Position numbers and translations under genes: made by a program | Shown: in pieces, positions 73 through 25,279 of the stretch | How positions within the stretch are numbered: the stretch's first letter is position 1 | Layout: every line of letters begins with the position of its first letter | DNA from: an uncultured virus (IMG/VR IMGVR_UViG_3300001605_000015) | Taxonomy: Duplodnaviria; Heunggongvirae; Uroviricota; Caudoviricetes | Virus record (IMG/VR): IMGVR_UViG_3300001605_000015 | Span: 62,001-90,183 of that record | DNA: 28,183 nt | Strand: one strand, 5' to 3' | The notes under the pieces: model-generated | Database searches by the model: none | Told to the model about the DNA's origin: nothing | Seen by the model: only the letters and a program-made list of their open reading frames with translations

Positions 73-101
73 TTGCGGCCCATGTTCCGCATTCCTATTC
101 T
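73..101 (+). promoter_or_regulatory. sigma70-like early promoter
   Basis: TTGCGG-N17-TATTCT upstream of gene 158. Confidence 0.6.
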
Positions 102-157
102 ACATCTATCGGGCAAACCACGGCCCGATAGTTTAACCCCAATCACGGAGTTCTCAC

Positions 158-1009: not shown

Positions 1010-1047
1010 TACATCACGGAAACCACACCAACCACGGAGTATACCCA

Positions 1048-4100: not shown

Positions 4101-4144
4101 ATGTTACTTTCTTATTGCGGGGTTGTAGGATGCCGCGCTATAAC
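4099..4144 (+). promoter_or_regulatory. sigma70-like promoter with shared 19-bp upstream element
   Basis: GGATGTTACTTTCTTATTG (also at 5523-5541) runs into TTGCGG-N18-TATAAC. Confidence 0.7.
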
Positions 4145-4500: not shown

Positions 4501-4920
4501 GGAAGTGCGATACGGCTTGCGCCTCTGATGGGGCGCGGCTACTCTCTTCTTACTAACCATACAAACCCAAAGGAGCAAAGCAATGGGATACACTATGCAC
4601 TATGGCGAGATTGCCGATCTTGCTGCTCGTGATGAAGCCGCCATCTCGGATACCAAGGACTACCTCGGTGAAGAGCGGTTCAACTTCCTCGTCTCCGAAA
4701 TGGAGAAAGCGAAAACGGCTGAGTGGATCAATCAGATGAACATCGCCTTCGCCTTCGCTGGCATCTCCGGTCTGCCGTTCCATGCCATGTGCCGCAAGTA
4801 TGCTCTCAAAGCCTATCGTGAGTGGATGCACTCCGGCGACGATGCGGTTGTTACGGACGAGCACGGCTACGTCGTCATGTAAGGAAGTGCGATACGGCTT
4901 GCGCCTCTGATGGGGCGCGG
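4498..4920 (+). repeat. 41-bp direct repeat (stop codon + promoter cassette) flanking gene 4583..4882
   Basis: TAAGGAAGTGCGATACGGCTTGCGCCTCTGATGGGGCGCGG at 4498-4538 and 4880-4920; -35 TTGCGC, followed at N17 by TACTCT or TATAAC. Confidence 0.9.
4583..4882 (+). CDS. hypothetical early protein
   Basis: AAGGAG RBS. Confidence 0.8.
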   Translation: MGYTMHYGEIADLAARDEAAISDTKDYLGEERFNFLVSEMEKAKTAEWINQMNIAFAFAGISGLPFHAMCRKYALKAYREWMHSGDDAVVTDEHGYVVM

Positions 4921-4956
4921 GTATAACTCGGTTATATCAAATCACGGAGCAAGGCT

Positions 4957-5567: not shown

Positions 5568-5626
5568 ATTCTTATCAGCGGAACCACGGCTGATAGTCAG
5601 AAACGCCAGATACCACGGAGGTTCAA

Positions 5627-6829: not shown

Positions 6830-6934
6830 ATGAAAGGCACGATCCGCAACTTCCTGAAAGACCTGCTCGGCGTGTTGGCTGTGTTCGCCATCCCTGTTGT
6901 TGGTCTCTACATCGCTCACGGATTCGGCTTCTAA
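6830..6934 (+). CDS. small single-TM membrane protein (34 aa)
   Basis: AAGGAG RBS; LLGVLAVFAIPVVGLYIA. Confidence 0.7.
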   Translation: MKGTIRNFLKDLLGVLAVFAIPVVGLYIAHGFGF

Positions 6935-7146: not shown

Positions 7147-7234
7147 CTGTGCTATAACGGGTTACAACGATTGTCCGGGGTGCTATCGTTTCCTCGGGCA
7201 ATGCTGCCCTATAACCAACCACGGAGCTTAGAAG

Positions 7235-7865: not shown

Positions 7866-8289
7866 CCCTCTTTCCGACTCGAGTTCGTCCCATCCTACCA
7901 CGTCCGATCCGCGATTCGCAAGCGGAATCGTCATGCTGCATCGCGGAATCTTATCTGCCCCCTTTGCCCCTATACGGGGCGCAACCGCCCCCCCCTTGCC
8001 CCCTGCCCCCCCGGCAACCGGGGGCAAGCGACGACTCGCGGGGCAACCGTCGCGGGGCATTGCCCCCTGCCCCTATAACCGGTTATAGCGCCCCCCTGCC
8101 CCGTCGCGGCAACCGTCGCAACCGCCCCCGGCAATCGCCTGCCCCGTCCTGCCCCGTAGCGCCCCGCCTAGCGCCATTGCCCCCTTTTCTGCCCCTACCC
8201 TAGCGCAAAGCGGACTCGCCCCCCTACGGGGCATTTTTCGGGGGTCTACGGGGCATCACACTTTTTTATCTTTTCTTGCGGATTGCCCC

Positions 8290-8318
8290 TTGCCCCCGTC
8301 GCGCCCCTGCCCTAAATA
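8290..8318 (+). promoter_or_regulatory. sigma70-like promoter
   Basis: TTGCCC-N17-TAAATA, then a 5' hairpin CCGGGG...CCCCGG. Confidence 0.55.
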
Positions 8319-8389
8319 TCAATTCACCGGGGCGCAATCCTGCCCCCGGCAATTCGCCCCCAACGCGGGGCTTATACGGGAAAACCGCC

Positions 8390-8887
8390 ATGCAAACGAA
8401 AATTCGCAACCGCAAAACCGCCCCCGCAACCGTCGCAACCGAATCCGATGCGATTGCCCCCGTCGCAACCGATGCGGCAACCGTCGCGGCAACCGATACC
8501 CCCGCAACCGATACCCCTGCCCCCGTCGCGGATATTGCCTATAAAACCGCGTCACGCGATGCGGCAACCGTTACCGCCATGCGCACGAATTTTGCACAAT
8601 ATTCGGACCGCGACTCGGCTTACCTTGCCTTTTTCGGTCACGTTATGCGGGGCGCGGGGCATAGCGCGACTCTTGCGGAAATTCACAAAGCCGGAACGCC
8701 TGCCCCCGGCAAAACCGAACGTCGCGCGAATCCGTTCTATACCGGTAGCGCGAAAGCAACCGATGCGGGGGCAATCAACCGACTCGTTAAAGCCGGATAT
8801 TTCACGGTATCGGATAGCGGCAACCGACTCGCGGCAACCGATAAAGCGATTGCATCAAAACCATATAACGCAACCGCAACCGCATAA
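8390..8887 (+). CDS. hypothetical protein; likely distant third member of the gp158/gp5627 family
   Basis: YSDRDSAYL ~ MTDKDHGFL; TDAGAINRL ~ ADAGRIGRL; ATDKA ~ LTDKA; A/T/P-rich N-terminal linker. Confidence 0.75.
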   Translation: MQTKIRNRKTAPATVATESDAIAPVATDAATVAATDTPATDTPAPVADIAYKTASRDAATVTAMRTNFAQYSDRDSAYLAFFGHVMRGAGHSATLAEIHKAGTPAPGKTERRANPFYTGSAKATDAGAINRLVKAGYFTVSDSGNRLAATDKAIASKPYNATATA

Positions 8888-8897
8888 GCGAATCAAC

Positions 8898-9051: not shown

Positions 9052-9280
9052 TCAAAAAGACCCCTCACCCCCCCTCCAAACTGACGGGCTGTTTCTTGCT
9101 ATAACTGGTTATTAGGGTTGGTTCCAAAAAATACTATACTGGTTTTTCAAAAAGGGTTGGTTAGTTGGTTGGTTGGACGGTAATCTTTCTTTGCGTCTAA
9201 TGATAATCTGCTTCGCAAACCTGTCGGTCTACTATATAATACATTCTTATACATGTAATCTACGGACCACGGGGCAATCA

Positions 9281-11059: not shown

Positions 11060-11089
11060 CGTATCTTTGACCACGGAGAGGAAACTACA

Positions 11090-12433: not shown

Positions 12434-12618
12434 AATACTTCTACTGGCAGCGTTCCTTTTCCGGTCGCTGGTCTCCCGCAGCTTCGGCAGATATGCCCTC
12501 GGACAAGCGGGCAGAGGGTAAAAACCCTTTCGCTTTTGCAGGCGTTGTGACGCTTTCACAAGACGAGGGTAACATGACGCTTAAAGAGCTTGCGGAAAAG
12601 TATCCCCCTCCCCAATAA
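12430..12618 (+). CDS. hypothetical protein
   Basis: ATGA overlap; MKYFYWQRSFSGRWSP... Confidence 0.6.
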   Translation: MKYFYWQRSFSGRWSPAASADMPSDKRAEGKNPFAFAGVVTLSQDEGNMTLKELAEKYPPPQ

Positions 12619-12664
12619 CCTGTTACTATGATATAGGTGGTCAAACAAACATTGGAGGTTTGCC

Positions 12665-13578: not shown

Positions 13579-13641
13579 TATCTAACCTATTGCCAACAAA
13601 GGCATCCTGCGATAACATTCCGTATAACCACGGGAGCTTAC

Positions 13642-14228: not shown

Positions 14229-14457
14229 ATACCACAACATAATGGCAACTTTGCTACGAGAAACCGAGCAGGCGGTTTGCGTGAATGCGACCCACGCCGA
14301 ATACGGTGTGTTCCCCGGTCTATGGATTCCTAAAAGCGTTATCTTAGAGGATTCCTTGGAAGAGATTGAGGAAAGCGGCGACGGCGACGAACTGGAAATC
14401 TTCATTGCTGCTTGGTGGCTTCGCAGAAACTTTTCTGACAACCCAAACGGAAGGTAA
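14218..14457 (+). CDS. hypothetical protein
   Basis: GAGG RBS; RETEQAV...WIPKSVI pattern. Confidence 0.65.
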   Translation: MKTKYHNIMATLLRETEQAVCVNATHAEYGVFPGLWIPKSVILEDSLEEIEESGDGDELEIFIAAWWLRRNFSDNPNGR

Positions 14458-14461
14458 CGCT

Positions 14462-15133
14462 ATGCGTGACGATATACGAAGCATTCAGCAAGGCTTGATT
14501 GGCCTTGGTTACGATCTAGGACGCGCAGGAGCCGATGGTATTTACGGCCCCGCAACAGAAAGAGCGGCTCGTGCATGGATTGCGCGAACAGGACGGGAAG
14601 CACCTGCGCCGGAACCCATCTCTGCCGGAAAACTTCCCACCCTTTCTTGGCTTGAGGAAGGTAAAACTGTTTTTGGACTTCACGAGACTCGCGACAATGC
14701 CCGATTGAAAGCATGGCTTCGCTCGGACGGCAAAACTCTTGGTGATCCGAAAGCATTGCCTTGGTGCGGGGATTACGTCGAAACCGCTATCAAGAACGCA
14801 CTTCCGTCAGAGCCTTTCACTGGACCGCTTGGCGAGAATCCTTATTGGGCAAGAAACTGGATTTTCTTTGGTAGGACCGTAAATCCCTGCTATGGTTGCG
14901 TTCTTGTGTTTCAGCGTCCTAGCGGCGGTCATGTCGGCTTTGCTGTTGGTGAGGATACCACTGATTACTACGTCCTCGGAGGCAATCAAAGCGACTCTGT
15001 GAACATCGTTCGTATTTCAAAGAGTCGTTTGCTTCCGTCTGGTGCGCGGTGGCCTTCCACGCATGGCGGTGACGGAGTAAAGCTGCCGATCATGAGTCCC
15101 GGTTCGATCCCTCGTTCAACCAACGAGTTCTAA
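14462..15133 (+). CDS. endolysin-like: PG-binding domain plus NlpC/P60 (TIGR02594-type) peptidase
   Basis: GADGIYGPATERA; PWC...GGHVGF...VLGGNQSDSV. Confidence 0.88.
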   Translation: MRDDIRSIQQGLIGLGYDLGRAGADGIYGPATERAARAWIARTGREAPAPEPISAGKLPTLSWLEEGKTVFGLHETRDNARLKAWLRSDGKTLGDPKALPWCGDYVETAIKNALPSEPFTGPLGENPYWARNWIFFGRTVNPCYGCVLVFQRPSGGHVGFAVGEDTTDYYVLGGNQSDSVNIVRISKSRLLPSGARWPSTHGGDGVKLPIMSPGSIPRSTNEF

Positions 15134-15142
15134 CAAACGGGC

Positions 15143-15171
15143 TTGCGGATACAGATACCCGCTGCTAATAT
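15143..15171 (+). promoter_or_regulatory. sigma70-like promoter for the candidate sRNA
   Basis: TTGCGG-N17-TAATAT, same style as the early promoters. Confidence 0.6.
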
Positions 15172-15176
15172 CACCT

Positions 15177-15278
15177 TCGTCGGCCCCCTCATATACGCCG
15201 ATGCTCCGTGGTCGAGCACCCTTTTAGACGAGGCTTCGTGGTTGCTGCCGTTTGAGTCTTTAAGGGTGCTCGATTTTC
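15177..15278 (+). ncRNA. candidate trans-acting antisense sRNA
   Basis: perfect 12-bp stem TCGAGCACCCTT/AAGGGTGCTCGA followed by TTTT; two GCT(C/T)CGTGGT segments complementary to the RBS motif. Confidence 0.6.
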
Positions 15279-15296
15279 TATAACAGGGTTATAACC

Positions 15297-15704
15297 ATGA
15301 CAAAGCGTATACGCTCTCTTTCCAAAATCAAGAAAAAGCCTGCCAAGCAAAGCGGCCCACAATACGCTTCTGAGGATCAAAAAGAAGCACACATTCTTCT
15401 TCGTCGTTTCGAGGACGGCAAAGAGGATCACGACGATCTTTTCATTCCGTTTATGACTTTCTTTGGCAGCATCTTCGATCACGCAATTCCTGAGATTATT
15501 GCTGCCCGCGTTATGTCTCGTATGAACGTAGAAATACGACACCACGCAGACGACAAAAAATTCTATGTAAGAGCTTGGCACCAAGACGGCGTATATCCCA
15601 ACGCTTCTCCGCAAGTTATCGTCAATGGCAGTTCGGAAAAGCTTTGGATAGCCGTTGCGCTATGCTATCTTCGACTATGCACCCGAACACTAAGGAAACA
15701 CTAA
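15297..15704 (+). CDS. hypothetical protein
   Basis: 135-aa ORF; TAATG overlap with the next gene. Confidence 0.7.
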   Translation: MTKRIRSLSKIKKKPAKQSGPQYASEDQKEAHILLRRFEDGKEDHDDLFIPFMTFFGSIFDHAIPEIIAARVMSRMNVEIRHHADDKKFYVRAWHQDGVYPNASPQVIVNGSSEKLWIAVALCYLRLCTRTLRKH

Positions 15705-16240
15705 TGTCCTACGTCTCTCGCGTTACTAGCGAACTCGACTCTGAAATCCGTGGCCGCAATCCATCGCTTAACGGACAGAAGCACGAAATCTACCTGTTCA
15801 TCAAAGAACACCCCGGCTGCACTCGTGGCGATGTTGCCCGCGCTACCAAAATCAAGTCGTCTACCTGCACGGCTCGTATCCGTGATTTGATCGACTTAGG
15901 TTTTGTATCTGCGTCTAAATCGCGGCGTGTCAAGGATCGTTCGGGCGTTAGCGTGGAAACACTTTACGCACTCAAAGATCATCTGCATAAAAAACCAAAG
16001 GATCGTGTGCTCGTCACCATCAAGCTTATGGTTGACGAAGCTGGTCGTTATCACGCTGCGGCCAAGGTTCTCGGAGAGCTACCAGTTTCCGGGGCTTTGC
16101 ACACAGTTATGGAAAAGGAAGTTACCGTAACAGCACCTTACGTCAGCGAATATAAGCATAAATTCGTTGATGACGTTCTCGCAGAAGTTCCTTTGACAGA
16201 TACTCTCAGCAATGTTCGCTTGATCGTAGATATGTCTTGA
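15704..16240 (+). CDS. winged-HTH (MarR-like) DNA-binding protein
   Basis: IYLFIKEHPGCTRGDVARATKIKSSTCTARIRDLIDLGFV; AAGGA RBS. Confidence 0.8.
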   Translation: MSYVSRVTSELDSEIRGRNPSLNGQKHEIYLFIKEHPGCTRGDVARATKIKSSTCTARIRDLIDLGFVSASKSRRVKDRSGVSVETLYALKDHLHKKPKDRVLVTIKLMVDEAGRYHAAAKVLGELPVSGALHTVMEKEVTVTAPYVSEYKHKFVDDVLAEVPLTDTLSNVRLIVDMS

Positions 16241-16280: not shown

Positions 16281-16664
16281 ATGAAATTCGGCGTAATCAG
16301 CAGCCGTGACCGAAACGGCGAAGTTTTCGAAAATTCTGACTATGTTCAGAAATGTCTTACTCAGGTTGTAAAGGGTTTCTGCCCCAACCAAGGCAAAGGA
16401 ACCGTGATTATTTCGGGAGGCGGTCGCGGCCCCGAAACCATTGCTATCGAATATGCGACAAAGAACCATTTCGAGGTTGAGAAGGTCGTTCCGCATATCA
16501 AGACGCTTGGTATCGAAAAAGCTTTCTTGTCGCGGAACCGTTCGATCATCAACATGTGTGACATCCTGATCGTGTTCTGGACTGGCGAGAACCCGACGAT
16601 CACGGCGGCGCTGAATGATGCAGCGTTCCTTGAACGTCCGGTCGTCATGTTCCCTATCGTATAA
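16281..16664 (+). CDS. SLOG-superfamily protein (DUF2493/YspA-like)
   Basis: ISSR...IISGGGRGPE..A..YA...RNRSII..CD..IVFW. Confidence 0.75.
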   Translation: MKFGVISSRDRNGEVFENSDYVQKCLTQVVKGFCPNQGKGTVIISGGGRGPETIAIEYATKNHFEVEKVVPHIKTLGIEKAFLSRNRSIINMCDILIVFWTGENPTITAALNDAAFLERPVVMFPIV

Positions 16665-16686
16665 CACGGTTATAAAGGATGCTGCT

Positions 16687-18255
16687 ATGTCTACAAAAAA
16701 GTGGACCCACCGGGACGTTCAAGCGCCCCGTCTAAGGATACTTCTTGATCCTGTCTACGTTCAGGTTGCCAACCTCGGCTCTTCATCCACCTACCAGAAA
16801 TACGTATCCCTGACCCGCGAACTCGTGAAGCGCGGGCATTTTGTATACTGGATGCTGCCTGACGTTGACTACATCGCAAACCCTATCGAAGATCATCCGA
16901 ACGTAGGGATCATTCGAACTGAGTATATTCAGGATCAGTTTGTTGTGGACGGTCTTGTAACTGACTCGTTCTTCAACATGTTCAATCGTATCGCGGGCAA
17001 GTATCACATCGACGTGGTATGCACTTCTCGCACAGGTGCCGCAAACATGATCAAGCGGGTTTTGGAAAGCCCTCGTTTTCATGACAACGGCGGCAACTAC
17101 ACCGATAAGCACTATGGCTTGCCTATGGTCGTTATCGAAGAGTTTCCGCAGACACGCTTTCGTTCACATGTTGGGCAGGCTTACTGGCTTGCTCAATGTC
17201 AAGGCTACATGTCTAGCGACCTGACCGTTTTCATCTCTGACCATAACCGTTCCGAGGTTGTTGAGGGAATGGTGCCTATCTACCGTCCTAACACCATTCA
17301 GGACTGGATAAATCGCTGCACTGTAATTCCGTCAGGCATTGAAACTGCGGAGCTTGACACCTACTACCAAACTGATCGCTGGAAGCACGAAACAGGATTT
17401 CGCGTTATCAGCGTCGGTCGTATCATGGGCGTCAGCTACACGCAGTTTCTTGATTGGAGCCGTATGCTTTACGCAGCAGGCATGGATGCCAAGCTTATAG
17501 TTTCCTTGTCTGGAAAACTCGGTGGTCCCATGAAGAAGCGGCTCAGCAAGGACGGGATCACGTTTACCTCAGACAAGCCGTATTATCAGTTGATCGAAAA
17601 CAACCCTCGTGTTGCATTCCTGAAACTCTTGCGAACCGTTCACGCAGGTATCGTTCCCATGTCGCACCTTGACTGCCCTGTAGGCGTCAGCGAGGCGCTA
17701 TACATGGGTGTTCCGCTGGTGATGCCGGAAGCGGATTACCAAAAGACGTTCTTCCCAGACTACCCATTCGTTGTAAAGCCGTCTGACCGCAACGGATTGC
17801 TGGGCCATCTACAATTCATCAAGGAAAACCCCCAAGAAGCTCGTGACATGATCGAACCGTGGCGGCAGCATTTGAAAGGAACCTTCGATGCTCCTACGAA
17901 CATTGCGAAGCTTGTTGACGAGCTTGAAGAGGTTGCCAGAAAGCCTTTGCCTAAGTTCAAGACGAGCGGTGCTATACTTGAGTTCCTTACCGAACTCAAA
18001 GGTGAACGGTATACCTTTGATGACGTGGTGGCGTATCTGCGCAAGTGTGGATTCATGGGTATCTCCATCGGGGACTTGGGTATTCGTGCAACTTGGACCT
18101 ATGGTCGAGGAGCTATCCACCATGCCATGCGATATGTCGGATACGTAGATTTGTGCGACGGTCCAGAAGATGCCTTTGTTCGTCGTGATGTGTTTGAGCG
18201 CATGAACCAGACCACCCCTTCCTCTACTCGTAAAACGCGGAGAAAAGCAAAATGA
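16687..18255 (+). CDS. GT-B fold glycosyltransferase
   Basis: LVKRGHFV, VFISDH, VIPSGI, ISVGRI, GVSEALYMGVPLV motifs. Confidence 0.8.
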   Translation: MSTKKWTHRDVQAPRLRILLDPVYVQVANLGSSSTYQKYVSLTRELVKRGHFVYWMLPDVDYIANPIEDHPNVGIIRTEYIQDQFVVDGLVTDSFFNMFNRIAGKYHIDVVCTSRTGAANMIKRVLESPRFHDNGGNYTDKHYGLPMVVIEEFPQTRFRSHVGQAYWLAQCQGYMSSDLTVFISDHNRSEVVEGMVPIYRPNTIQDWINRCTVIPSGIETAELDTYYQTDRWKHETGFRVISVGRIMGVSYTQFLDWSRMLYAAGMDAKLIVSLSGKLGGPMKKRLSKDGITFTSDKPYYQLIENNPRVAFLKLLRTVHAGIVPMSHLDCPVGVSEALYMGVPLVMPEADYQKTFFPDYPFVVKPSDRNGLLGHLQFIKENPQEARDMIEPWRQHLKGTFDAPTNIAKLVDELEEVARKPLPKFKTSGAILEFLTELKGERYTFDDVVAYLRKCGFMGISIGDLGIRATWTYGRGAIHHAMRYVGYVDLCDGPEDAFVRRDVFERMNQTTPSSTRKTRRKAK

Positions 18256-19049
18256 CAAAGCTACAGGCAAGCAAGCTCAAGGTGTTCGATATTCCTGTCG
18301 AGTTGCTTTTTGGCGATGAGTTAAACCCGAATGAGATGAAGGAAGACAAGTTCGACCTTCTTGTTCAGGAGATTCAAGAAAACGGCTTTGACGAACCGAT
18401 CATCGTCATTCCGCACCCGCAGAAAGAAGGCAGCTATCTTATCGCTGGCGGGCATCACCGCGTAAAGGCGGCGAAGCAGATCGGTATGGAAGCTGTTCCT
18501 TCCGTGATCAAAGAAAGCTGGGACGAAGATCAACAAAAGATCGCACTGGTCAAACGCAACATCGTTCACGGCCAGATGAATACGCAAAAGTTTACCGCAC
18601 TTTACGGAGAGCTTGCCAAGAAGTATGACGCATCTCTTCTCAAAACGATGCTAGGTTTCACTCAAAAGAAAGAGTTTGAAGCCGTTTACGAAGGTGTTGA
18701 GAAATCACTAACCCCCAAGCAGAAAAAAGTGCTGGCGAAAGCTAAGGAAAAGATCAAATCGGTCGATGACCTTACGTCTGTGCTGCATGGCATCTTTAAG
18801 GAGCAGGGATCGGAAGCTGACAGCAGCTACGTTGTCTTTTCTTTTGGAGGAAAGCGGCATCATTACATCCAGATTGACGATGCTACAGACAAGCTTCTTT
18901 CCAGTATCAAGACGGACGTTGAAAACAGCGGCGGCTCTATGCAGGATTTCTTACAACAGGTTATAGCAGAAGCTTCCGTATCCGCAGATAGGATCAAGCC
19001 CGTCGCAAAGAAAACCAAGAAGCGCGTTGTTCGTAAGAAGCAGTCATGA
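18252..19049 (+). CDS. ParB/Srx-like N-terminal domain protein
   Basis: NPNEM...IQENGFDEPIIV...IAGGHHRVKAA. Confidence 0.85.
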   Translation: MTKLQASKLKVFDIPVELLFGDELNPNEMKEDKFDLLVQEIQENGFDEPIIVIPHPQKEGSYLIAGGHHRVKAAKQIGMEAVPSVIKESWDEDQQKIALVKRNIVHGQMNTQKFTALYGELAKKYDASLLKTMLGFTQKKEFEAVYEGVEKSLTPKQKKVLAKAKEKIKSVDDLTSVLHGIFKEQGSEADSSYVVFSFGGKRHHYIQIDDATDKLLSSIKTDVENSGGSMQDFLQQVIAEASVSADRIKPVAKKTKKRVVRKKQS

Positions 19050-19696
19050 GCAAGACACCAAACATACGGCGTAGGCGGATCAGGGCAAAGCCGAGCACAC
19101 GGGAAGAGCGTCAGGCAGAAGCCTTGACAGCTTATGAACGACAGACGCGCGTTGCCTTGAACTACATCAACAATCACCCGCAGTATCCGACTATTGTCGG
19201 TATGATGCGACTTGGAACCAGCAACGGAGACATTGCTGATTTCTTCATTGAACGCGGGGATTTTCAGGTAAACAGGAAAACGGCCATCTCATACCTTTCC
19301 ATGTTTCGGAAAGCCAATCCCGCTATATGTAAACCTACCGAGGATAACGATGATCTTGGTTATGATCATCTGTTCGACGGCAACCGTGCGCTGGTTACTG
19401 CGGAGACTGAGCTTGCCAAGCTTATTCAGTTGCAGAAAGCTCGCCTAGCCATCGACTTCAAATCCGAACGTAGTATCGGGAAACTGTTTAACACCACGCA
19501 CAAGGAAGTTGCTGTGCTTGGTGAGCTTCTCGAAAAATACAGTAAAGTTCGTCTAGGAAAAGGCAGCGGCGGCGTTCTATCCTCTGTTCCTCTAAGCGAG
19601 GACGTAAAAGACGGTGTGCAGAACATCCGTCATGACGAAGAGAAGCGAAACGCTTTGACGAATGCGCTGTTTAATCTACTAACCCCCGGAGATTGA
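19046..19696 (+). CDS. candidate terminase small subunit
   Basis: lies directly before TerL; HTH-like N-part and helical C-part; assignment is positional. Confidence 0.5.
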   Translation: MSKTPNIRRRRIRAKPSTREERQAEALTAYERQTRVALNYINNHPQYPTIVGMMRLGTSNGDIADFFIERGDFQVNRKTAISYLSMFRKANPAICKPTEDNDDLGYDHLFDGNRALVTAETELAKLIQLQKARLAIDFKSERSIGKLFNTTHKEVAVLGELLEKYSKVRLGKGSGGVLSSVPLSEDVKDGVQNIRHDEEKRNALTNALFNLLTPGD

Positions 19697-19697
19697 T

Positions 19698-21710
19698 ATG
19701 GCTGTTAAGAGAAAGCCCTCTGCCGAAGCTTACAGACATGCGGAAATCATCGAAGCTATAACACGGTTACAAAACGATCTGGACGAGATTGACGATCCGC
19801 GTATCTCGGAACAGTTCCGCGCCGCTATAGCCGAGGTAAAGAAAGACGGCGATTTCGAGAAGCTTATTGAGCTTACTCGTTATCGTCGCACACCTGTAAG
19901 CTTGGAAGAGTTTCTATACGGCAGCATGTATCTTGGTCTTAACCCAAGTGAGCTATATCCGGGTGTGACAGAGGCTTTGTTTGAGCTTGAGACGGGTAAA
20001 TACGTTGAAGCGGTTCTAAAGGGCAGCATTGGCGGCGGTAAAACCACTGTCGCTAACATAGGCATCCTGCGACAGCTTTATCTGATTTCCTGTTTACGCA
20101 ACCCGCAGGCAACCTTCGGTGTGCAGCGTAACTCTTCACTGGTCTTTACAATCCAGTCGGTTCGCTTGTCCACGGCTAAGAAAGCCGTGTTTCAGGAAAT
20201 GGGTGCCTACATCGCCAACTCGCCCTACTTCAACAAAATTTACCCTTATGACAAGCGCATCACGTCTGAGATGATTTTCAGGGAACAGCATGTAACCATC
20301 ATGCCTGTTTCGTCTTCGGATACTGGTGCCATCTCGCTTAACGTGATCGGCGGCTTGCTGGACGAAATGAACTTCATGCAGAAGGTCACAAAATCTAAGC
20401 AGGATGGGGCAGACCTTTCCGGCGAGTATGACCAAGCCAAGAACCTTTACCTTAACCTGTCGAAGCGGCGCAGGTCTCGATTTATGGCACGAGGTAAGTT
20501 GCCGGGTATCCTTTTCCTCGTGTCTTCGTCTCGCTATCCTGACGACTTCACCGAAGTTAAAGCGGCGGAAGCCGAGATGTGCGGCGGTCCTGATCCGCAG
20601 ATTTACGTCTGGTCAAAGTCTCTTTGGGAATCGAAAGGACGTGAGCGATACAGCCCAGCTAACTTCCGTGTCCTAATCGGCAACGAAAAATTCAAATCTC
20701 GTATTATGAAGGAAGACGAGCCAGTTCCTACTGATATGGAATCAATCGAGGTTCCAGAGGATTTCCGTTCGGAATTTCTCAAAGATATGGACGGCTCTAT
20801 CCGAGACCTTGCTGGCCGCACTACACTGGCAACTCGACCGTTCCTGCGTAACCGAGAAGCCATCTTCAACTGCATGAACCTTGCGGAGCAGTATGGCTAT
20901 CGCACTGTGCATAATCTTGAAGAGGTTGATCTTAGCATATCTATACCGCAGGTGATCGAAAACAATATCAGGTCAGACGTTAAGCAGATGCGCGTCTGCC
21001 ACGTTGACTTGGCCGTTACGCGAGATAGCGCGGGCTTGGCTATTGGTCACGTCGCCGGAACCAAGACTATGCAAAAGACCAACTTTGAAACAGGCGAAAT
21101 CATCACAGAGACTTTGCCTGTTATTGCGTTTGACGCGGTGCTAAGGATCGTTCCTCCGCAGGCTGGTGAAATTGACTTCTCGTTGATACGTCAGATCATA
21201 TTCGATTTGAAAGAGCGGCACGGCTTGCCTATCAAGGTTGTAACTACTGACGGCTTCAACAGCGTGGACTTCCGTCAAATCCTTGCCAAGAAAGGTTACG
21301 CCACTGATTACCTGTCTGTTGACCGGACAACGCAACCTTACATAACTGTTCGTGACGCTATCAATGACGGAAGGCTTTTCCTGCCGCGTCACCAATGGTT
21401 GTTGAAAGAGCTTGTTGAGCTTGAGTATGTTCGATCCAATTCAAAAGAAAAGGTCGATCACCGTGAGCGTGGTTCGAAGGATATTGCGGACGCAGTTTGC
21501 GGCGTGACTTCCTACCTAATGACGCGCCGACAGGCTTGGACGCAGCAACCTATATTCATGGGACAGGGCGGCTACTTGCTTCATGGTAGCAGGACTTATC
21601 ATGAGGGTATGAGTCTCATGAAAAGAAGCGAGGAAGAGACGGTAAAATCCCTTCAATCAGTTAGAAAAACTGTATCTCGCCGCTCCACGAGTAGGCGATC
21701 TAATCATTGA
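19698..21710 (+). CDS. terL: terminase large subunit
   Basis: Walker A GSIGGGKT, Walker B GLLDE, nuclease HVDLA...DGF...SKDIADAV. Confidence 0.92.
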   Translation: MAVKRKPSAEAYRHAEIIEAITRLQNDLDEIDDPRISEQFRAAIAEVKKDGDFEKLIELTRYRRTPVSLEEFLYGSMYLGLNPSELYPGVTEALFELETGKYVEAVLKGSIGGGKTTVANIGILRQLYLISCLRNPQATFGVQRNSSLVFTIQSVRLSTAKKAVFQEMGAYIANSPYFNKIYPYDKRITSEMIFREQHVTIMPVSSSDTGAISLNVIGGLLDEMNFMQKVTKSKQDGADLSGEYDQAKNLYLNLSKRRRSRFMARGKLPGILFLVSSSRYPDDFTEVKAAEAEMCGGPDPQIYVWSKSLWESKGRERYSPANFRVLIGNEKFKSRIMKEDEPVPTDMESIEVPEDFRSEFLKDMDGSIRDLAGRTTLATRPFLRNREAIFNCMNLAEQYGYRTVHNLEEVDLSISIPQVIENNIRSDVKQMRVCHVDLAVTRDSAGLAIGHVAGTKTMQKTNFETGEIITETLPVIAFDAVLRIVPPQAGEIDFSLIRQIIFDLKERHGLPIKVVTTDGFNSVDFRQILAKKGYATDYLSVDRTTQPYITVRDAINDGRLFLPRHQWLLKELVELEYVRSNSKEKVDHRERGSKDIADAVCGVTSYLMTRRQAWTQQPIFMGQGGYLLHGSRTYHEGMSLMKRSEEETVKSLQSVRKTVSRRSTSRRSNH

Positions 21711-21736
21711 CAAACCATGTAATAACGGGTTATTAT
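21707..21736 (+). promoter_or_regulatory. sigma70 promoter with an embedded palindrome
   Basis: TTGACA-N18-TATTAT; TAATAAC-GG-GTTATTA at 21720-21735. Confidence 0.7.
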
Positions 21737-21761
21737 ACAAAGCAACCACGGAGCCTATTTC

Positions 21762-22118
21762 ATGCAAGACAAGCTATCGGTTAAAAACGCTTCTTTAACG
21801 AAGCTATAGTATCAGACGCATCGGAAATTCTTATTCGTGTGTCGGGATACGACGTTTACCGAGGAACCGCCAATTCCAAACAACTTTCAGGCAATCGTTC
21901 GTTTTCAGAACGCTACGTTGCCTTGGTCAGTTTGCGTCGATGCGGACCCTTACATTGCTTTGACCACGGTTCTGCGGAATGCTGTAAAGCGAGACGCACC
22001 TATCGCTAATAAGGAAACCACGAACCATGCCGTTAGCAAAGACAAGCCCAGACTACTACGAAAAGCCCCTGTCGCCAGAGTCCGACCTCGCCCGAAGCAA
22101 CTACGAAAGCCGACTTGA
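21762..22118 (+). pseudogene. ORF interrupted by an in-frame TAG at 21807-21809
   Basis: promoter, ACCACGGAG RBS and ATG 21762 are in frame with ORF 21837..22118. Confidence 0.45.
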
Positions 22119-23546: not shown

Positions 23547-25265
23547 ATGTCAAAAACACGCATCAAGAAGCGCGGTTCTCTAGCGCATAATACCAGAAAG
23601 TCTTTCGGTAACTCTGCGCAAGCGGTGCGCACAGAAGCCGGAACCACCACTCATCTGCAAAGCCTTCTTGAACCCGTAACCGTTCAAAAAGGTCTTTTCG
23701 GCTTCAACGACCTTACTACATTCGAAAGTGACGGCACCCTCGTATTCGATATTGCTTTTTCGGATACTGACGGGGTTTTGCCAATCGTCAACCCGATATT
23801 CCCTTACAAGCAACTTTCCCAGATTTACATTTCCAGCACTACTTTGCGTGAATGTATTTCGGCGTATGTCACGAATATCGAAAGTTACGGCATTCGCTTT
23901 GACTATATCGGACCCGAAGGCCGCAAAGACAGCTTGCCCGCTCGTCGTGAAAAGGAACGCCTAGAGTCCTTCGTAGAATCCTTGGTTTCTAACGGCGAGA
24001 CACTTGAGCAAGCTCGTGTTCGTTCTCGCATCGACAAAGAGGTTATCGGGGCGCGGGCCTTTGAGATAATGCAGGACGAGGCGGGGCGCGTTGTGAACAT
24101 CTCCCGCATTCCATCCAATACTCTTTTGATGACTCGTCTTGAAAAAGAGCCAATCGAGGTCATGGTATGGAATGCCCGTCGCGGCGTATTCATGACACAT
24201 CGCCGTCGCTTCCGTCGCTTTGTTCAGCGAGACGTGTTCGGTCGCATGATCTATTTCAAGGAATGGGGAGACCCTCGTCCTATTGATCCTACCACGGGGC
24301 GCGTAAACACTTCGCTCTCTATCGAACAGGAAGCAACCAGCATTTACTATGATGCGTATTATACGCCGGGATCGCCCTACGGCACTCCACAGTGGTCGGG
24401 CTGCATCCCTGCTATGCTCGGAAGCCGTGAAGCGGAAATGGTCAATCTTTCGTTCTTCCGCGACAACGCAATTCCGGCAATGGCCGTCATGGTTTCTGGC
24501 GGCGCACTGACCGAGGAAAGCTACAGCAAGATCGTGAACTATTTTAGCGGGGTGCGTGGGCAGGGTTCCATGAACCGCATCGTTGTTCTTGAAGCAACAA
24601 CGGAAGCTTCTGACATGGCGGCTATTGACGGTTCGTCTTCGGCTCCGAAGGTTGACATCAAGCCCATGCTCTCTGACCGACAGCACGAAGGGCTTTTCTC
24701 GGTATATATCAAGGAAGCCTCCGAAAAGATTCGCCAGTCGTTCCGCTTGCCACCTATCTATATTGGCTCTGCCGAAGAGTATAACCGTGCAAGCGCATTT
24801 GCCTCCATGCAGACAGCGGAGCAGCAGGTCTTTGTTCCTGAGCGTCAAGCTTGGGACGACTTTATGGCGCAAGTTGTTTTGCGCGATTGGGACTTGCGTT
24901 ATTGGGCTGTTCGTTCGGCGCAACCGTCTTACAACGACCCCACGGAGATTTCCCAGCTTCTTACGGTTCTGGGTGCTCAAGGCGCTTTGACGCCTAACGT
25001 CTGTATCGACCTTGCCAATCGCTATCTTAATACCCGTATCGAACCTGTTACGGACGATTGGGGCGATATGCCGTGGAACGCAACACTCGTGAACCTTAAT
25101 CGCGGCGCAAAGGTCGAAGGGTTCGAATACATTACCGATTACCTGTCTGACACGTTGTCTGGAACACCAGCACCTACCGATACCAACGAAATCGCAAAAT
25201 CCGTTCACATGATGCTTGACGAACTCGTTGAAAACGTGAACCGGGTTTACGGTCAGATCAAATAA
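23547..25265 (+). CDS. portal protein (PBSX/XkdE-like)
   Basis: YGTPQW, NLSFFRDNAIPAMAVMVSGG, IRQSFRLPPIYIG; position and size. Confidence 0.9.
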   Translation: MSKTRIKKRGSLAHNTRKSFGNSAQAVRTEAGTTTHLQSLLEPVTVQKGLFGFNDLTTFESDGTLVFDIAFSDTDGVLPIVNPIFPYKQLSQIYISSTTLRECISAYVTNIESYGIRFDYIGPEGRKDSLPARREKERLESFVESLVSNGETLEQARVRSRIDKEVIGARAFEIMQDEAGRVVNISRIPSNTLLMTRLEKEPIEVMVWNARRGVFMTHRRRFRRFVQRDVFGRMIYFKEWGDPRPIDPTTGRVNTSLSIEQEATSIYYDAYYTPGSPYGTPQWSGCIPAMLGSREAEMVNLSFFRDNAIPAMAVMVSGGALTEESYSKIVNYFSGVRGQGSMNRIVVLEATTEASDMAAIDGSSSAPKVDIKPMLSDRQHEGLFSVYIKEASEKIRQSFRLPPIYIGSAEEYNRASAFASMQTAEQQVFVPERQAWDDFMAQVVLRDWDLRYWAVRSAQPSYNDPTEISQLLTVLGAQGALTPNVCIDLANRYLNTRIEPVTDDWGDMPWNATLVNLNRGAKVEGFEYITDYLSDTLSGTPAPTDTNEIAKSVHMMLDELVENVNRVYGQIK

Positions 25266-25279
25266 CCGGGTTATAAGCG

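What the first reader, a model, noticed from the sequence alone, without database searches (positions are those of the whole stretch)
15143..15278. Candidate phage sRNA antisense to a motif shared by many ribosome-binding sites
Seen: the lysin/15297 intergenic gap has a promoter (TTGCGG-N17-TAATAT), a small hairpin (TCGGC/GCCGA) and a perfect 12-bp stem (15212-15223 with 15262-15273) ending in TTTT. It carries two related segments. AGGCTTCGTGGTTGCT (15231-15246, inside the large hairpin) is complementary over 16 nt (one G-U) to AGCAACCACGGAGCCT, the RBS at 21741-21756. TGCTCCGTGGTC (15202-15213) is complementary over 12 nt (one G-U) to GACCACGGGGCA at 9265-9276 and over 10 nt to GACCACGGAG at 11069. 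Established analogues are the P1 C4 and P4 CI antisense RNAs, which act on few targets. Inference: one sRNA controls a genome-wide translational regulon, such as early-gene shut-off or immunity. Alternative: a minus-strand transcript displays RACCACG loops as a protein sponge.
Basis: partly seen in the sequence, partly recalled or inferred. Interest (0 to 1): 0.85.

Follow-up and report, generated by a model that had tools for sequence, protein, structure and literature searches.

The report
Candidate phage anti-leader small RNA
Between the lysin gene and the next gene of an uncultured 90-kb phage lies what looks like a gene for a 100-base RNA with two exposed stretches that mirror the ribosome-binding tag in front of a dozen of the phage's own genes, so it may turn their translation down, but no transcript or related copy has been seen.

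Summary
The promoter-like site, the small hairpin, the perfect 12-bp stem with a T-run and all quoted complementarities are at the stated coordinates. In the whole 90,183-bp phage, ACCACGRRG occurs 15 times on the gene strand. Twelve copies lie 5-11 nt before the start of an ORF of at least 59 codons. The only 2 opposite-strand copies both lie in this 135-nt gap. Of 9,009 100-nt windows, only this locus and one GU-rich coding stretch are complementary to 15 or more ribosome-binding regions.

The best reading (about 0.5) is a plus-strand RNA of about 100 nt. It would be made from its own promoter, as the tail of the lysis message, or both. Its open linker and apical loop would pair with the leader/Shine-Dalgarno tag of the non-structural operons.

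This is unproven. No relative carries the element. No Rfam family matches. Energy-only target scans do not beat shuffled seeds.

Unchecked notes of this scan report the same architecture in at least eight other phage genomes. I class it as a new variant of a known kind, interest 0.55.

The parts
15143..15171 (+). Promoter-like site TTGCGG-N17-TAATAT
   Evidence: Read. It is the only 10-of-12 match to the phage-adapted consensus on either strand in 15000-15600. The same TTGCGG/TTGCGC -35 hexamer with a 17-18 nt spacer stands before several tagged genes. This is weak on its own: there are 98 such plus-strand matches in 90 kb.
15179..15202 (+). 5' stem-loop (GUCGGC/GCCGAU, 12-nt loop) starting at the inferred transcription start
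   Evidence: MFE and pair probabilities. The start near 15179 is inferred from the promoter geometry and has not been observed.
15203..15212 (+). Seed 1, GCUCCGUGGU, the mirror of ACCACGGAGC. Bases 15203-15209 form the single-stranded linker.
   Evidence: Unpaired probability is 0.90-1.00 for 15203-15209. Opening 15203-15210 costs 0.64 kcal/mol. It is complementary over 10-13 nt to the tagged start sites.
15212..15273 (+). Long terminator hairpin: a perfect 12-bp stem (15212-15223 with 15262-15273) enclosing a 38-nt structured insert
   Evidence: The plus strand folds 7 kcal/mol better than the minus strand (-45.9 against -38.8).
15231..15246 (+). Seed 2, AGGCUUCGUGGUUGCU, in the apical part of the hairpin
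   Evidence: It is complementary over 16 nt to 21741-21756 and over 9-13 nt to the other tagged sites. Bases 15235-15247 are mostly unpaired. Opening 15235-15244 costs 1.45 kcal/mol.
15274..15279 (+). T-run (TTTTCT) of the intrinsic terminator
   Evidence: The T-run is present on the plus strand only.
15280..15292 (+). ATAACAGGGTTAT, one copy of the phage's abundant palindromic motif. It sits 4 nt before ATG 15297 and marks the downstream boundary of the unit.
   Evidence: The same order of terminator, motif and ATG recurs at genome 4430-4480.
21741..21756 (+). Best predicted target: AGCAACCACGGAGCCU at the 5' end of the message from the strongest sigma-70-like promoter (TTGACA-N18-TATTAT, 21707-21736)
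   Evidence: Accessibility-corrected energy is -20.1 kcal/mol with seed 2.
1031..1039 (+). Tagged ribosome-binding site ACCACGGAG, 8 nt before the ATG of a 103-codon ORF
5612..5620 (+). Tagged ribosome-binding site, 6 nt before the ATG of a 128-codon ORF
7218..7226 (+). Tagged ribosome-binding site, 8 nt before the ATG of a 100-codon ORF
   Evidence: Energy is -14.2 kcal/mol with seed 2.
9266..9274 (+). Tagged ribosome-binding site (ACCACGGGG), 6 nt before the ATG of a 156-codon ORF
11070..11078 (+). Tagged ribosome-binding site, 11 nt before the ATG of a 102-codon ORF
15130..15212 (-). Rival reading: minus-strand ACCACGGAG (15212-15204), then 11 nt, then ATG 15192 opening a 20-codon ORF (MRGPTKVILAAGICIRKPVC)
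   Evidence: No promoter-like site was found on that strand in 15000-15600. No minus-strand ORF in the genome has family support.

Best explanation
The gap encodes a plus-strand regulatory RNA of about 100 nt (roughly 15179-15278).

**How it is made (inferred).** It could be transcribed by the host RNA polymerase from TTGCGG-N17-TAATAT. It could also be released as the tail of the lysis-operon message, which ends at the same terminator.

**Predicted shape.**
- a 5' stem-loop
- a 7-8 nt open linker, GCUCCGU(G)
- a long terminator hairpin whose apical region displays UUCGUGGUUGCU
- a U-run

**Proposed action (inferred).** Both exposed stretches are the mirror image of (A)ACCACGGAG(C). That tag is a CA-rich leader plus the GGAG Shine-Dalgarno sequence, and it precedes the first gene after a promoter in a dozen non-structural operons of this phage. 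Pairing would cover the Shine-Dalgarno sequence, so the most likely effect is to block ribosome binding. Message decay might follow. One RNA would then damp a whole set of phage genes as it accumulates.

**What is shown and what is inferred.**
- Shown: the sequences, their strand bias and position, the predicted fold and accessibility.
- Inferred: transcription, pairing in vivo, the sign of the effect, its timing, and any role of Hfq.
For: 1. Fifteen plus-strand copies of ACCACGRRG occur genome-wide. The only 2 minus-strand copies are both in this gap, 30 nt apart.
2. Twelve of the 15 plus-strand copies lie 5-11 nt before the start of an ORF of at least 59 codons. A 13th precedes a gene that is homologous to a relative's gene.
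3. There are 14 contiguous helices of 12 nt or more (at most one G-U) between the RNA and the plus strand. Two are its own stem, 9 fall on tagged start sites and 3 fall elsewhere.
4. Windows over this locus are complementary to 15-16 of 89 start regions, against a mean of 1.48 (sd 1.70). Nine of 9,009 windows reach 15; eight of them overlap this locus.
5. Both seeds are predicted open. Accessibility-corrected energies are -20.1, -14.4, -14.2, -13.7 and -13.3 kcal/mol for the five best sites.
6. The promoter-like site and the T-run exist on the plus strand only, and the plus strand folds better.
7. The one departure of minus-strand copy 2 from the tag (ACCACGAAG) changes a C to a U in the plus-strand RNA. 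Pairing is kept as a G-U, while a position that is G in all 15 plus-strand copies is lost.
8. Twelve of the 13 tagged starts lie at genome positions 24.5-73.1 kb, the non-structural part. They precede small unknown proteins and an AAA ATPase.
Against: - No relative carries the element, so neither conservation nor covariation can be shown.
- The closest relative has only 10 nt between the two analogous ORFs at this position.
- No Rfam family matches, even at E up to 10.
- Hybridisation energy alone does not single out the tagged sites. Six shuffles of each seed reach the same minima and the same numbers of strong sites.
- Generic 11-nt complementarity of the window is only in the top 5% (21 sites against a mean of 12.25; 471 of 9,009 windows do as well).
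- With a second set of start sites, a GU-rich stretch inside the tape-measure gene (genome position 6831) scores 19 against 17 for this locus. One chance mirror of a repeated tag therefore gives many hits at once.
- The promoter match is of a quality seen about once per 920 nt.
- The terminator would be needed for the lysis operon in any case.
- The post-lysin gap of Rhodobacter phage RcTiptonus shows no comparable complementarity.
Confidence: 0.5

Rival explanations
1. The gap is only the lysis-operon terminator plus the start signals of the next gene. The two mirror copies of the tag are non-functional debris, for example inverted fragments of the repeated leader modules left by recombination in a region that is replaced in every relative.
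For: - The whole lysin/135-aa-gene segment is unique to this phage.
- The order of terminator, palindromic motif and ATG recurs elsewhere without mirror tags (genome position 4461).
- A coding stretch at genome position 6831 mirrors the tag by chance.
- There is no conservation or expression evidence.
Against: - Two copies fall within 40 nt, where about 7e-4 of one copy is expected (rate).
- Both copies sit at the positions predicted to be unpaired.
- No similarity extends beyond the 13-16 nt islands, so there is no trace of a larger inverted duplication.
- The single substitution keeps pairing as a G-U.
Confidence: 0.22
2. The minus strand is the working strand. A short antisense transcript would carry the normal tag, either to translate the 20-codon ORF (15192-15130) or to act as a decoy for whatever factor recognises the ACCACGGAG leader. 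The plus-strand RNA could then be its antisense partner, as in a type I toxin-antitoxin pair.
For: - On the minus strand the copies have the same orientation as all functional tags.
- ACCACGGAG lies 11 nt before an ATG. The same spacing is used at 11070.
- The hairpin also forms on the minus strand (-38.8 kcal/mol, z = -4.05).
Against: - No promoter-like site was found on the minus strand in 15000-15600, and no T-run follows the hairpin on that strand.
- None of the 5 best-scoring minus-strand ORFs of the genome has a PHROG match, and each overlaps a plus-strand ORF.
- The peptide has only 9 consecutive hydrophobic residues, too few for a membrane toxin.
- Copy 2 reads GAAG instead of GGAG and is followed by no usable ORF.
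Confidence: 0.12
3. ACCACGGAG is a DNA site for a phage DNA-binding protein, acting as a roadblock in the way of the stoperators of mycobacteriophage L5 (recalled, not looked up). The two copies in the gap would then be operator sites, perhaps for the winged-helix protein encoded at 15704-16240.
For: - The site is short, asymmetric and strand-biased, and lies downstream of promoters.
- A MarR-type winged-helix gene lies about 400 nt downstream.
Against: - The motif contains the GGAG Shine-Dalgarno sequence at ribosomal spacing (5-11 nt) from 12 start codons. Its distance from the -10 elements varies from about 8 to about 45 nt.
- Copy 2 breaks a position that is invariant in all 15 plus-strand copies.
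Confidence: 0.08
4. The mirror segments act in cis. The tail of the lysis message would fold back on the tagged leader of the first gene of that message (ACCACGGGAG at 13627-13636, before ATG 13642) to hold back or time its translation.
For: - A promoter-like site at 13590-13618 and the tag at 13627 precede the three-gene lysis block, which ends at this terminator.
- Unchecked notes of this scan describe message tails mirroring their own leaders in other phages.
Against: - The 13627 tag has an extra G, so pairing needs a bulge. It is weaker than pairing with the tags of other operons.
- This reading does not explain the 16-nt match to 21741.
Confidence: 0.08

Closest known systems
C4 antisense RNA of phages P1/P7 (immI operon) and CI RNA of satellite phage P4
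   Same: Each is a small phage RNA with two short exposed segments that pair with repeated complementary sites on phage messages, including a ribosome-binding site. For C4 blocking ant expression I read passages of PMC8198154. The two-site details and P4 CI are recalled.
   Different: C4 and CI act on one operon and serve prophage immunity. Here the mirror sites are spread over 12-13 operons, and no lysogeny genes were seen. No Rfam family, C4 included, matches.
T4 RegB endonuclease and RegA translational repressor
   Same: These are phage-encoded factors that act on the translation-initiation regions of many early messages at once. RegB cuts GGAG Shine-Dalgarno sites, and RegA competes with the ribosome on about 30 mRNAs (passages of PMC3014915). 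The proposed logic, damping a whole gene class through its start sites, is the same.
   Different: RegA and RegB are proteins. Here the recognising agent would be an RNA, and specificity would come from base pairing with a private extension (ACCAC) of the Shine-Dalgarno sequence.
Cuckoo/CcsR (RSs0680) sRNAs of Rhodobacterales and Rhizobiales
   Same: These are sRNAs of the probable host clade, built of hairpins whose loops carry an anti-Shine-Dalgarno motif (passages of PMC4615179).
   Different: Their defining loop motif is CCUCCUCCC. Here the seeds are CUCCGUGGU and CUUCGUGGUU, and only one of the two lies in a loop. They are chromosomal, not phage-borne. No Rfam hit was found.
3'-UTR-derived sRNAs sharing the terminator of an mRNA (for example UdsC of Rhodobacter sphaeroides)
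   Same: The RNA lies directly after a coding gene and uses its terminator. It might be made both by processing and from an internal promoter. For UdsC I saw only the search listing and abstract of PMC9779115.
   Different: Those act on host genes. Here the predicted targets are the phage's own leaders.

Membership tests
Any Rfam family (including C4 antisense RNA, RF01695, accession recalled) | Covariance-model match at or near the family's gathering score | tested here: not met
   There were 0 matches in the whole window at gathering scores. There were 0 matches in 15050-15400 at E up to 10.
Trans-acting base-pairing sRNA (general class) | Own promoter | tested here: inconclusive
   TTGCGG-N17-TAATAT is the only promoter-like site in 15000-15600 on either strand, but matches of this quality occur 98 times per 90 kb. 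The tool's own sigma-70 scan did not list it.
Trans-acting base-pairing sRNA (general class) | Intrinsic terminator (stem followed by a U-run) and no ORF | tested here: met
   A 12-bp perfect stem is followed by TTTTCT. The longest plus-strand ORF inside is 8 codons (read).
Trans-acting base-pairing sRNA (general class) | [quoted passage not shown] | tested here: met
   Of the 14 helices of 12 nt or more, 9 lie on tagged start sites. The locus hits 15 of 89 start regions. All of this is prediction only.
Trans-acting base-pairing sRNA (general class) | A discrete transcript exists and changes target expression | not testable with these tools
   No sequencing data could be laid on the locus.
Trans-acting base-pairing sRNA (general class) | Conservation or covariation of structure and seed in relatives | tested here: inconclusive
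   No relative holds a homologous gap, so the test could not be run.
Cuckoo/CcsR family | Two to four hairpins, each with the loop motif CCUCCUCCC | tested here: not met
   The motif is absent from 15143-15278. The family definition comes from PMC4615179.
Type I toxin-antitoxin pair | A small hydrophobic toxin ORF with its own promoter, overlapped by an antisense RNA | tested here: not met
   The 20-codon minus-strand ORF has a hydrophobic run of only 9 residues, and no minus-strand promoter-like site was found.

The most novel reading that the evidence does not exclude
One phage RNA serves as a master off-switch for a whole class of the phage's own operons. Each host-polymerase-driven non-structural operon would carry a private 9-16 nt address (CA-rich leader plus GGAG) at its first ribosome-binding site. 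A single two-seed RNA, encoded at the junction of the lysis and packaging modules, would read that address and shut the class down as it accumulates. This would be an RNA counterpart of T4 RegA/RegB. If the unchecked parallel notes from this scan hold, it would be one instance of a widespread, undescribed strategy of phage gene timing.
Probability: 0.3. Interest if true: 0.8.

Novelty: new variant of a known kind. Interest (0 to 1): 0.55.

Why it matters
Timing of phage gene expression is usually explained by transcription factors, sigma factors and a few RNA-binding proteins. A small RNA that recognises a private tag on many of the phage's own ribosome-binding sites would add a post-transcriptional, regulon-wide switch to that list.

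It would also give a simple sequence rule for finding such switches in uncultured phages: a shared leader, plus its mirror image in a terminator-bounded gap. And it would offer a compact orthogonal repressor/tag pair for synthetic biology.

My library search for phage-encoded small RNAs acting on Shine-Dalgarno sites listed no such regulon-wide case. Neither did the passages I read of a 2025 review of phage sRNAs (PMC12197685). I did not see that review's supplementary table of 38 uncharacterised sRNAs.

Tried and rejected
**Relatives and homologues**
- Lysin against viral contigs: 6 loci, all matching only the peptidoglycan-binding domain.
- The 135-aa gene against viral contigs: none.
- The 546-aa and 670-aa proteins: 3 and 6 loci, syntenic only from window position 15707 or 16402 onward.
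- Lysin against metagenome contigs: 11 partial hits.
- Terminase against genome contigs: none.
- blastn against named phages: none.
- Pattern CTCCGTGGT-N15-35-TTCGTGGTT in viral contigs: 14 stretches, none sharing the hairpin or the flanks.
- Pattern for the tagged start site: 9 records, each with only 1-2 copies of ACCACGGAG.
- The same anti-start-site window scan on the closest relative G001 (first 80,000 of its 80,456 bases): no outstanding intergenic window.
- The same scan on the post-lysin gap of RcTiptonus: 11 of 42 starts at 7 nt (666 of 5,385 windows do as well) and 3 of 42 at 8 nt.

**Expression and known families**
- Sequencing runs: no RNA holder was listed.
- Rfam: nothing. tRNA/tmRNA: none in the window.

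**Target-prediction statistics**
- Full-length duplex scan: dominated by unrealistic long duplexes, so discarded.
- Seed-only duplex energies: not different from 6 shuffles per seed.

**Readings considered and set aside**
- CsrA/RsmA site (consensus recalled): the tag resembles CANGGA, but the two leader hairpins that display AACCACG (117 and 5583) lack GGA. Set aside.
- Extended pairing of the tag with the 16S rRNA tail (sequence recalled): ACCAC does not continue the anti-Shine-Dalgarno complement.
- Phage RNA polymerase promoters: no RNA polymerase was found among the 14 large proteins I scanned.

**Earlier notes of this scan**
- By place and by sequence: nothing.

Full report
**Setting**

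The window is the last 28 kb (62001-90183) of a complete 90,183-bp virus record with direct terminal repeats.
- Tape-measure, tail, DNA polymerase, helicase, primase, portal and protease genes mark it as a tailed phage with a long non-contractile tail.
- All 19 ORFs of 300 or more codons that I used as a coding model are on the plus strand.
- The 5 best-scoring minus-strand ORFs have no PHROG match and overlap plus-strand ORFs.
- The nearest named phages are the RcF-cluster phages of Rhodobacter capsulatus, with 62.7% amino-acid identity in the terminase. I read passages on that cluster in PMC8601537; they contain no mention of promoters, motifs or small RNAs. The host is therefore probably an alphaproteobacterium (inference).
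- The gene upstream of the gap (14366-15133) has a peptidoglycan-binding domain and matches a tail-lysozyme/endolysin family.
- The gene downstream (15297-15704) has no family match.

**The observation**

The plus strand of 15172-15282 folds to -45.9 kcal/mol, 5.5 standard deviations better than 200 shuffles. The three quoted complementarities are exact, and the one at 11069 is longer than stated.

**The tag**

ACCACGG occurs 13 times in the window against 3.16 expected, 12 of them on the plus strand. In the whole genome ACCACG[GA][GA]G occurs 15 times on the plus strand (12 as ACCACGGAG, 3 as ACCACGGGG) and twice on the minus strand.
- Twelve of the 15 lie 5-11 nt before an ATG or GTG that opens an ORF of 59-575 codons.
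- A 13th (21745) precedes a 15-codon ORF. That frame continues, collinear, into homology with an ORF of the closest relative (E = 6e-12) after an in-frame TAG at codon 16.
- The other two lie inside genes.

GGAG is thus the Shine-Dalgarno sequence, and ACCAC is a private 5' extension within CA-rich leaders. At least 7 of the 13 tagged starts follow a recognisable -35/-10 pair within about 45 nt, so the tag marks the first gene after a promoter. Twelve of the 13 lie at genome positions 24.5-73.1 kb, outside the tail and head modules. They precede small proteins without family matches, plus one AAA ATPase.

**The mirror**

The only two minus-strand copies of the tag in 90 kb are 15212-15204 and 15242-15234.

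Read on the plus strand they are CUCCGUGGU and CUUCGUGGU. The second copy extends to a 16-nt mirror of AGCAACCACGGAGCCU. That 16-mer is the leader at 21741, and it also occurs at one ribosome-binding site of relative G001.

In the predicted structure of 15179-15278:
- the first mirror starts in a 7-nt linker that is unpaired with probability 0.90-1.00;
- the second fills the mostly unpaired apical region of the terminator hairpin.

There are 14 contiguous helices of 12 nt or more (at most one G-U) between this RNA and the plus strand. Two are its own stem, nine lie on tagged start sites and three lie elsewhere. After adding the cost of opening both partners, the best sites score -20.1, -14.4, -14.2, -13.7 and -13.3 kcal/mol.

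**How unusual is it**

I counted, for each of 9,009 100-nt windows of the plus strand, how many of 89 Shine-Dalgarno-bearing start regions it can pair with over at least 9 nt. The mean is 1.48 (sd 1.70). Nine windows reach 15 or more. Eight overlap this locus, and one lies at genome position 6831.

With a second, looser start set (101 starts), position 6831 scores 19 and this locus scores 17. The next loci score 14, 14 and 11. Position 6831 is a GU-rich stretch inside the tape-measure gene. A single chance mirror of a repeated tag can therefore give many hits.

What sets the candidate apart is this combination:
- two separate mirrors;
- both at predicted open positions;
- in a non-coding gap bounded by a promoter-like site and a terminator.

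Weaker measures do not single it out.
- Its generic 11-nt complementarity is in the top 5% only.
- Hybridisation energies of the seeds equal those of shuffled seeds.

**Which strand**

| Feature | Plus strand | Minus strand |
|---|---|---|
| Promoter-like site in 15000-15600 | the only one | none |
| T-run after the hairpin | yes | no |
| Fold | -45.9 kcal/mol | -38.8 kcal/mol |

The promoter-like site uses the -35 hexamer TTGCGG, which recurs before other genes of this phage. The minus strand offers the tag in its usual orientation and a 20-codon ORF 11 nt after it. It has no promoter-like site, and the genome has no supported minus-strand gene.

The one substitution in copy 2 destroys an invariant G of the tag on the minus strand but preserves pairing as a G-U for a plus-strand RNA. 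I therefore favour the plus strand, without excluding the other.

**Boundaries**

Directly after the T-run comes ATAACAGGGTTAT, 4 nt before ATG 15297. It is one of 54 copies of ATAAC-N2-3-GTTAY in the genome. For the 3-nt-spacer form, 37 copies are found against 1.3 expected. The same order of terminator, motif and ATG occurs at genome position 4461. The downstream gene therefore seems to have its own start signals, and the unit upstream of the motif stands alone.

**Relatives**

No test of conservation was possible.
- The closest contigs (78-79% amino-acid identity in the terminase; 69.5% nucleotide identity over 16402-21586) have no similarity upstream of 16402.
- In the 80-kb relative, the ORFs that take the place of the lysin and the next gene are 10 nt apart.
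- That relative carries only AC-N-ACGGAG, 6 times on the gene strand, 5 of them before an ATG. It has none on the other strand.
- Searches with the lysin, the 135-aa protein and two DNA patterns found nothing homologous.
- No Rfam family matches.

**Mechanism and rivals**

I put about 0.5 on a plus-strand RNA that pairs with the tagged leaders and occludes the Shine-Dalgarno sequence. Whether it arises from its own promoter, from the end of the lysis message or from both is open, and so are its timing and any Hfq dependence.

| Rival reading | Confidence |
|---|---|
| Terminator with non-functional inverted leader fragments | 0.22 |
| Minus-strand mini-gene or decoy | 0.12 |
| DNA-level operator | 0.08 |
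| Fold-back on the lysis operon's own leader at 13627 | 0.08 |

**Comparison with what is known**

The design resembles the C4 RNA of P1/P7 and the CI RNA of P4: two seeds acting on repeated sites on phage messages. Those act on one operon, for immunity, and no Rfam model matches here. I read passages on C4 in PMC8198154; the other details are recalled.

In logic it resembles T4 RegB and RegA, proteins that act on the start sites of many early messages (PMC3014915 passages). In the host clade, cuckoo/CcsR sRNAs display anti-Shine-Dalgarno loops, but with a different defining motif (PMC4615179 passages).

My library search and the passages I read of a 2025 review of phage sRNAs (PMC12197685) show no phage RNA aimed at a tag shared by a dozen of the phage's own operons.

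Notes of this scan describe the same architecture in at least eight other phage genomes, some with conserved copies in relatives. These notes are unchecked and share no sequence with this locus. They are leads, not support.

**Verdict**

I class it as a new variant of a known kind, with interest 0.55.

Noticed in passing
Whole genome; in the window for example 15280-15292, 16661-16673, 21722-21733, 25262-25274: A directional near-palindrome, (T/A)ATAAC-N2-3-GTTA(T/C), occurs 54 times in 90 kb. The 3-nt-spacer form occurs 37 times against 1.3 expected, with an invariant A before TAAC and a G-rich third spacer base. Sixteen of the 54 copies lie within 45 nt upstream of a candidate start, against 7.9 for random positions. 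It could be a promoter element or a repressor site. Rhodobacter phage RcTiptonus has a different palindrome (TTACAATCGATTGCAA) in the same kind of position.
   Followed up: partly
window 21762-22118: The gene after the strongest promoter (TTGACA-N18-TATTAT) is homologous to an ORF of the closest relative (E = 6e-12). It carries an in-frame TAG at codon 16 (21807-21809). The possibilities are a nonsense mutation, a sequencing error, a restart at GTG 21837 or read-through.
   Followed up: partly
window 7960-8890: A stretch of about 900 bp is packed with GC-rich direct repeats around the core GCAACCG (for example GCGGCAACCGTCGC, 6 copies at 79-100% identity). It lies in a region without a convincing gene. 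It is possibly a replication origin or a partition-type binding array.
   Followed up: partly
window 93-140 and 5571-5600: Two leaders carry a hairpin whose loop displays AACCACG (AUCGGGC-AAACCACG-GCCCGAU and AUCAGC-GGAACCACG-GCUGAU), about 20 nt upstream of their tagged Shine-Dalgarno sequence. The loops are complementary to the apical CGUGGUU of the candidate RNA, so loop-loop contact is conceivable.
   Followed up: no
L036 6071-6137 (Rhodobacter phage RcTiptonus, gap after its lysin gene): The gap contains CUCCUCCCU, which resembles the cuckoo anti-Shine-Dalgarno motif. A 10-bp hairpin follows and abuts the annotated GTG start. Its complementarity to that phage's start regions is not outstanding.
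   Followed up: partly
window 73-101, 4115-4144, 4899-4927, 12590-12619 and genome 57832, 59942: The phage's sigma-70-like promoters favour the -35 hexamer TTGCGG/TTGCGC and -10 hexamers TATAAC/TATTCT/TATACT. The loose pattern matches 23 times on the plus strand against 6 on the minus strand. Several have a GC-rich hairpin in the spacer.
   Followed up: partly
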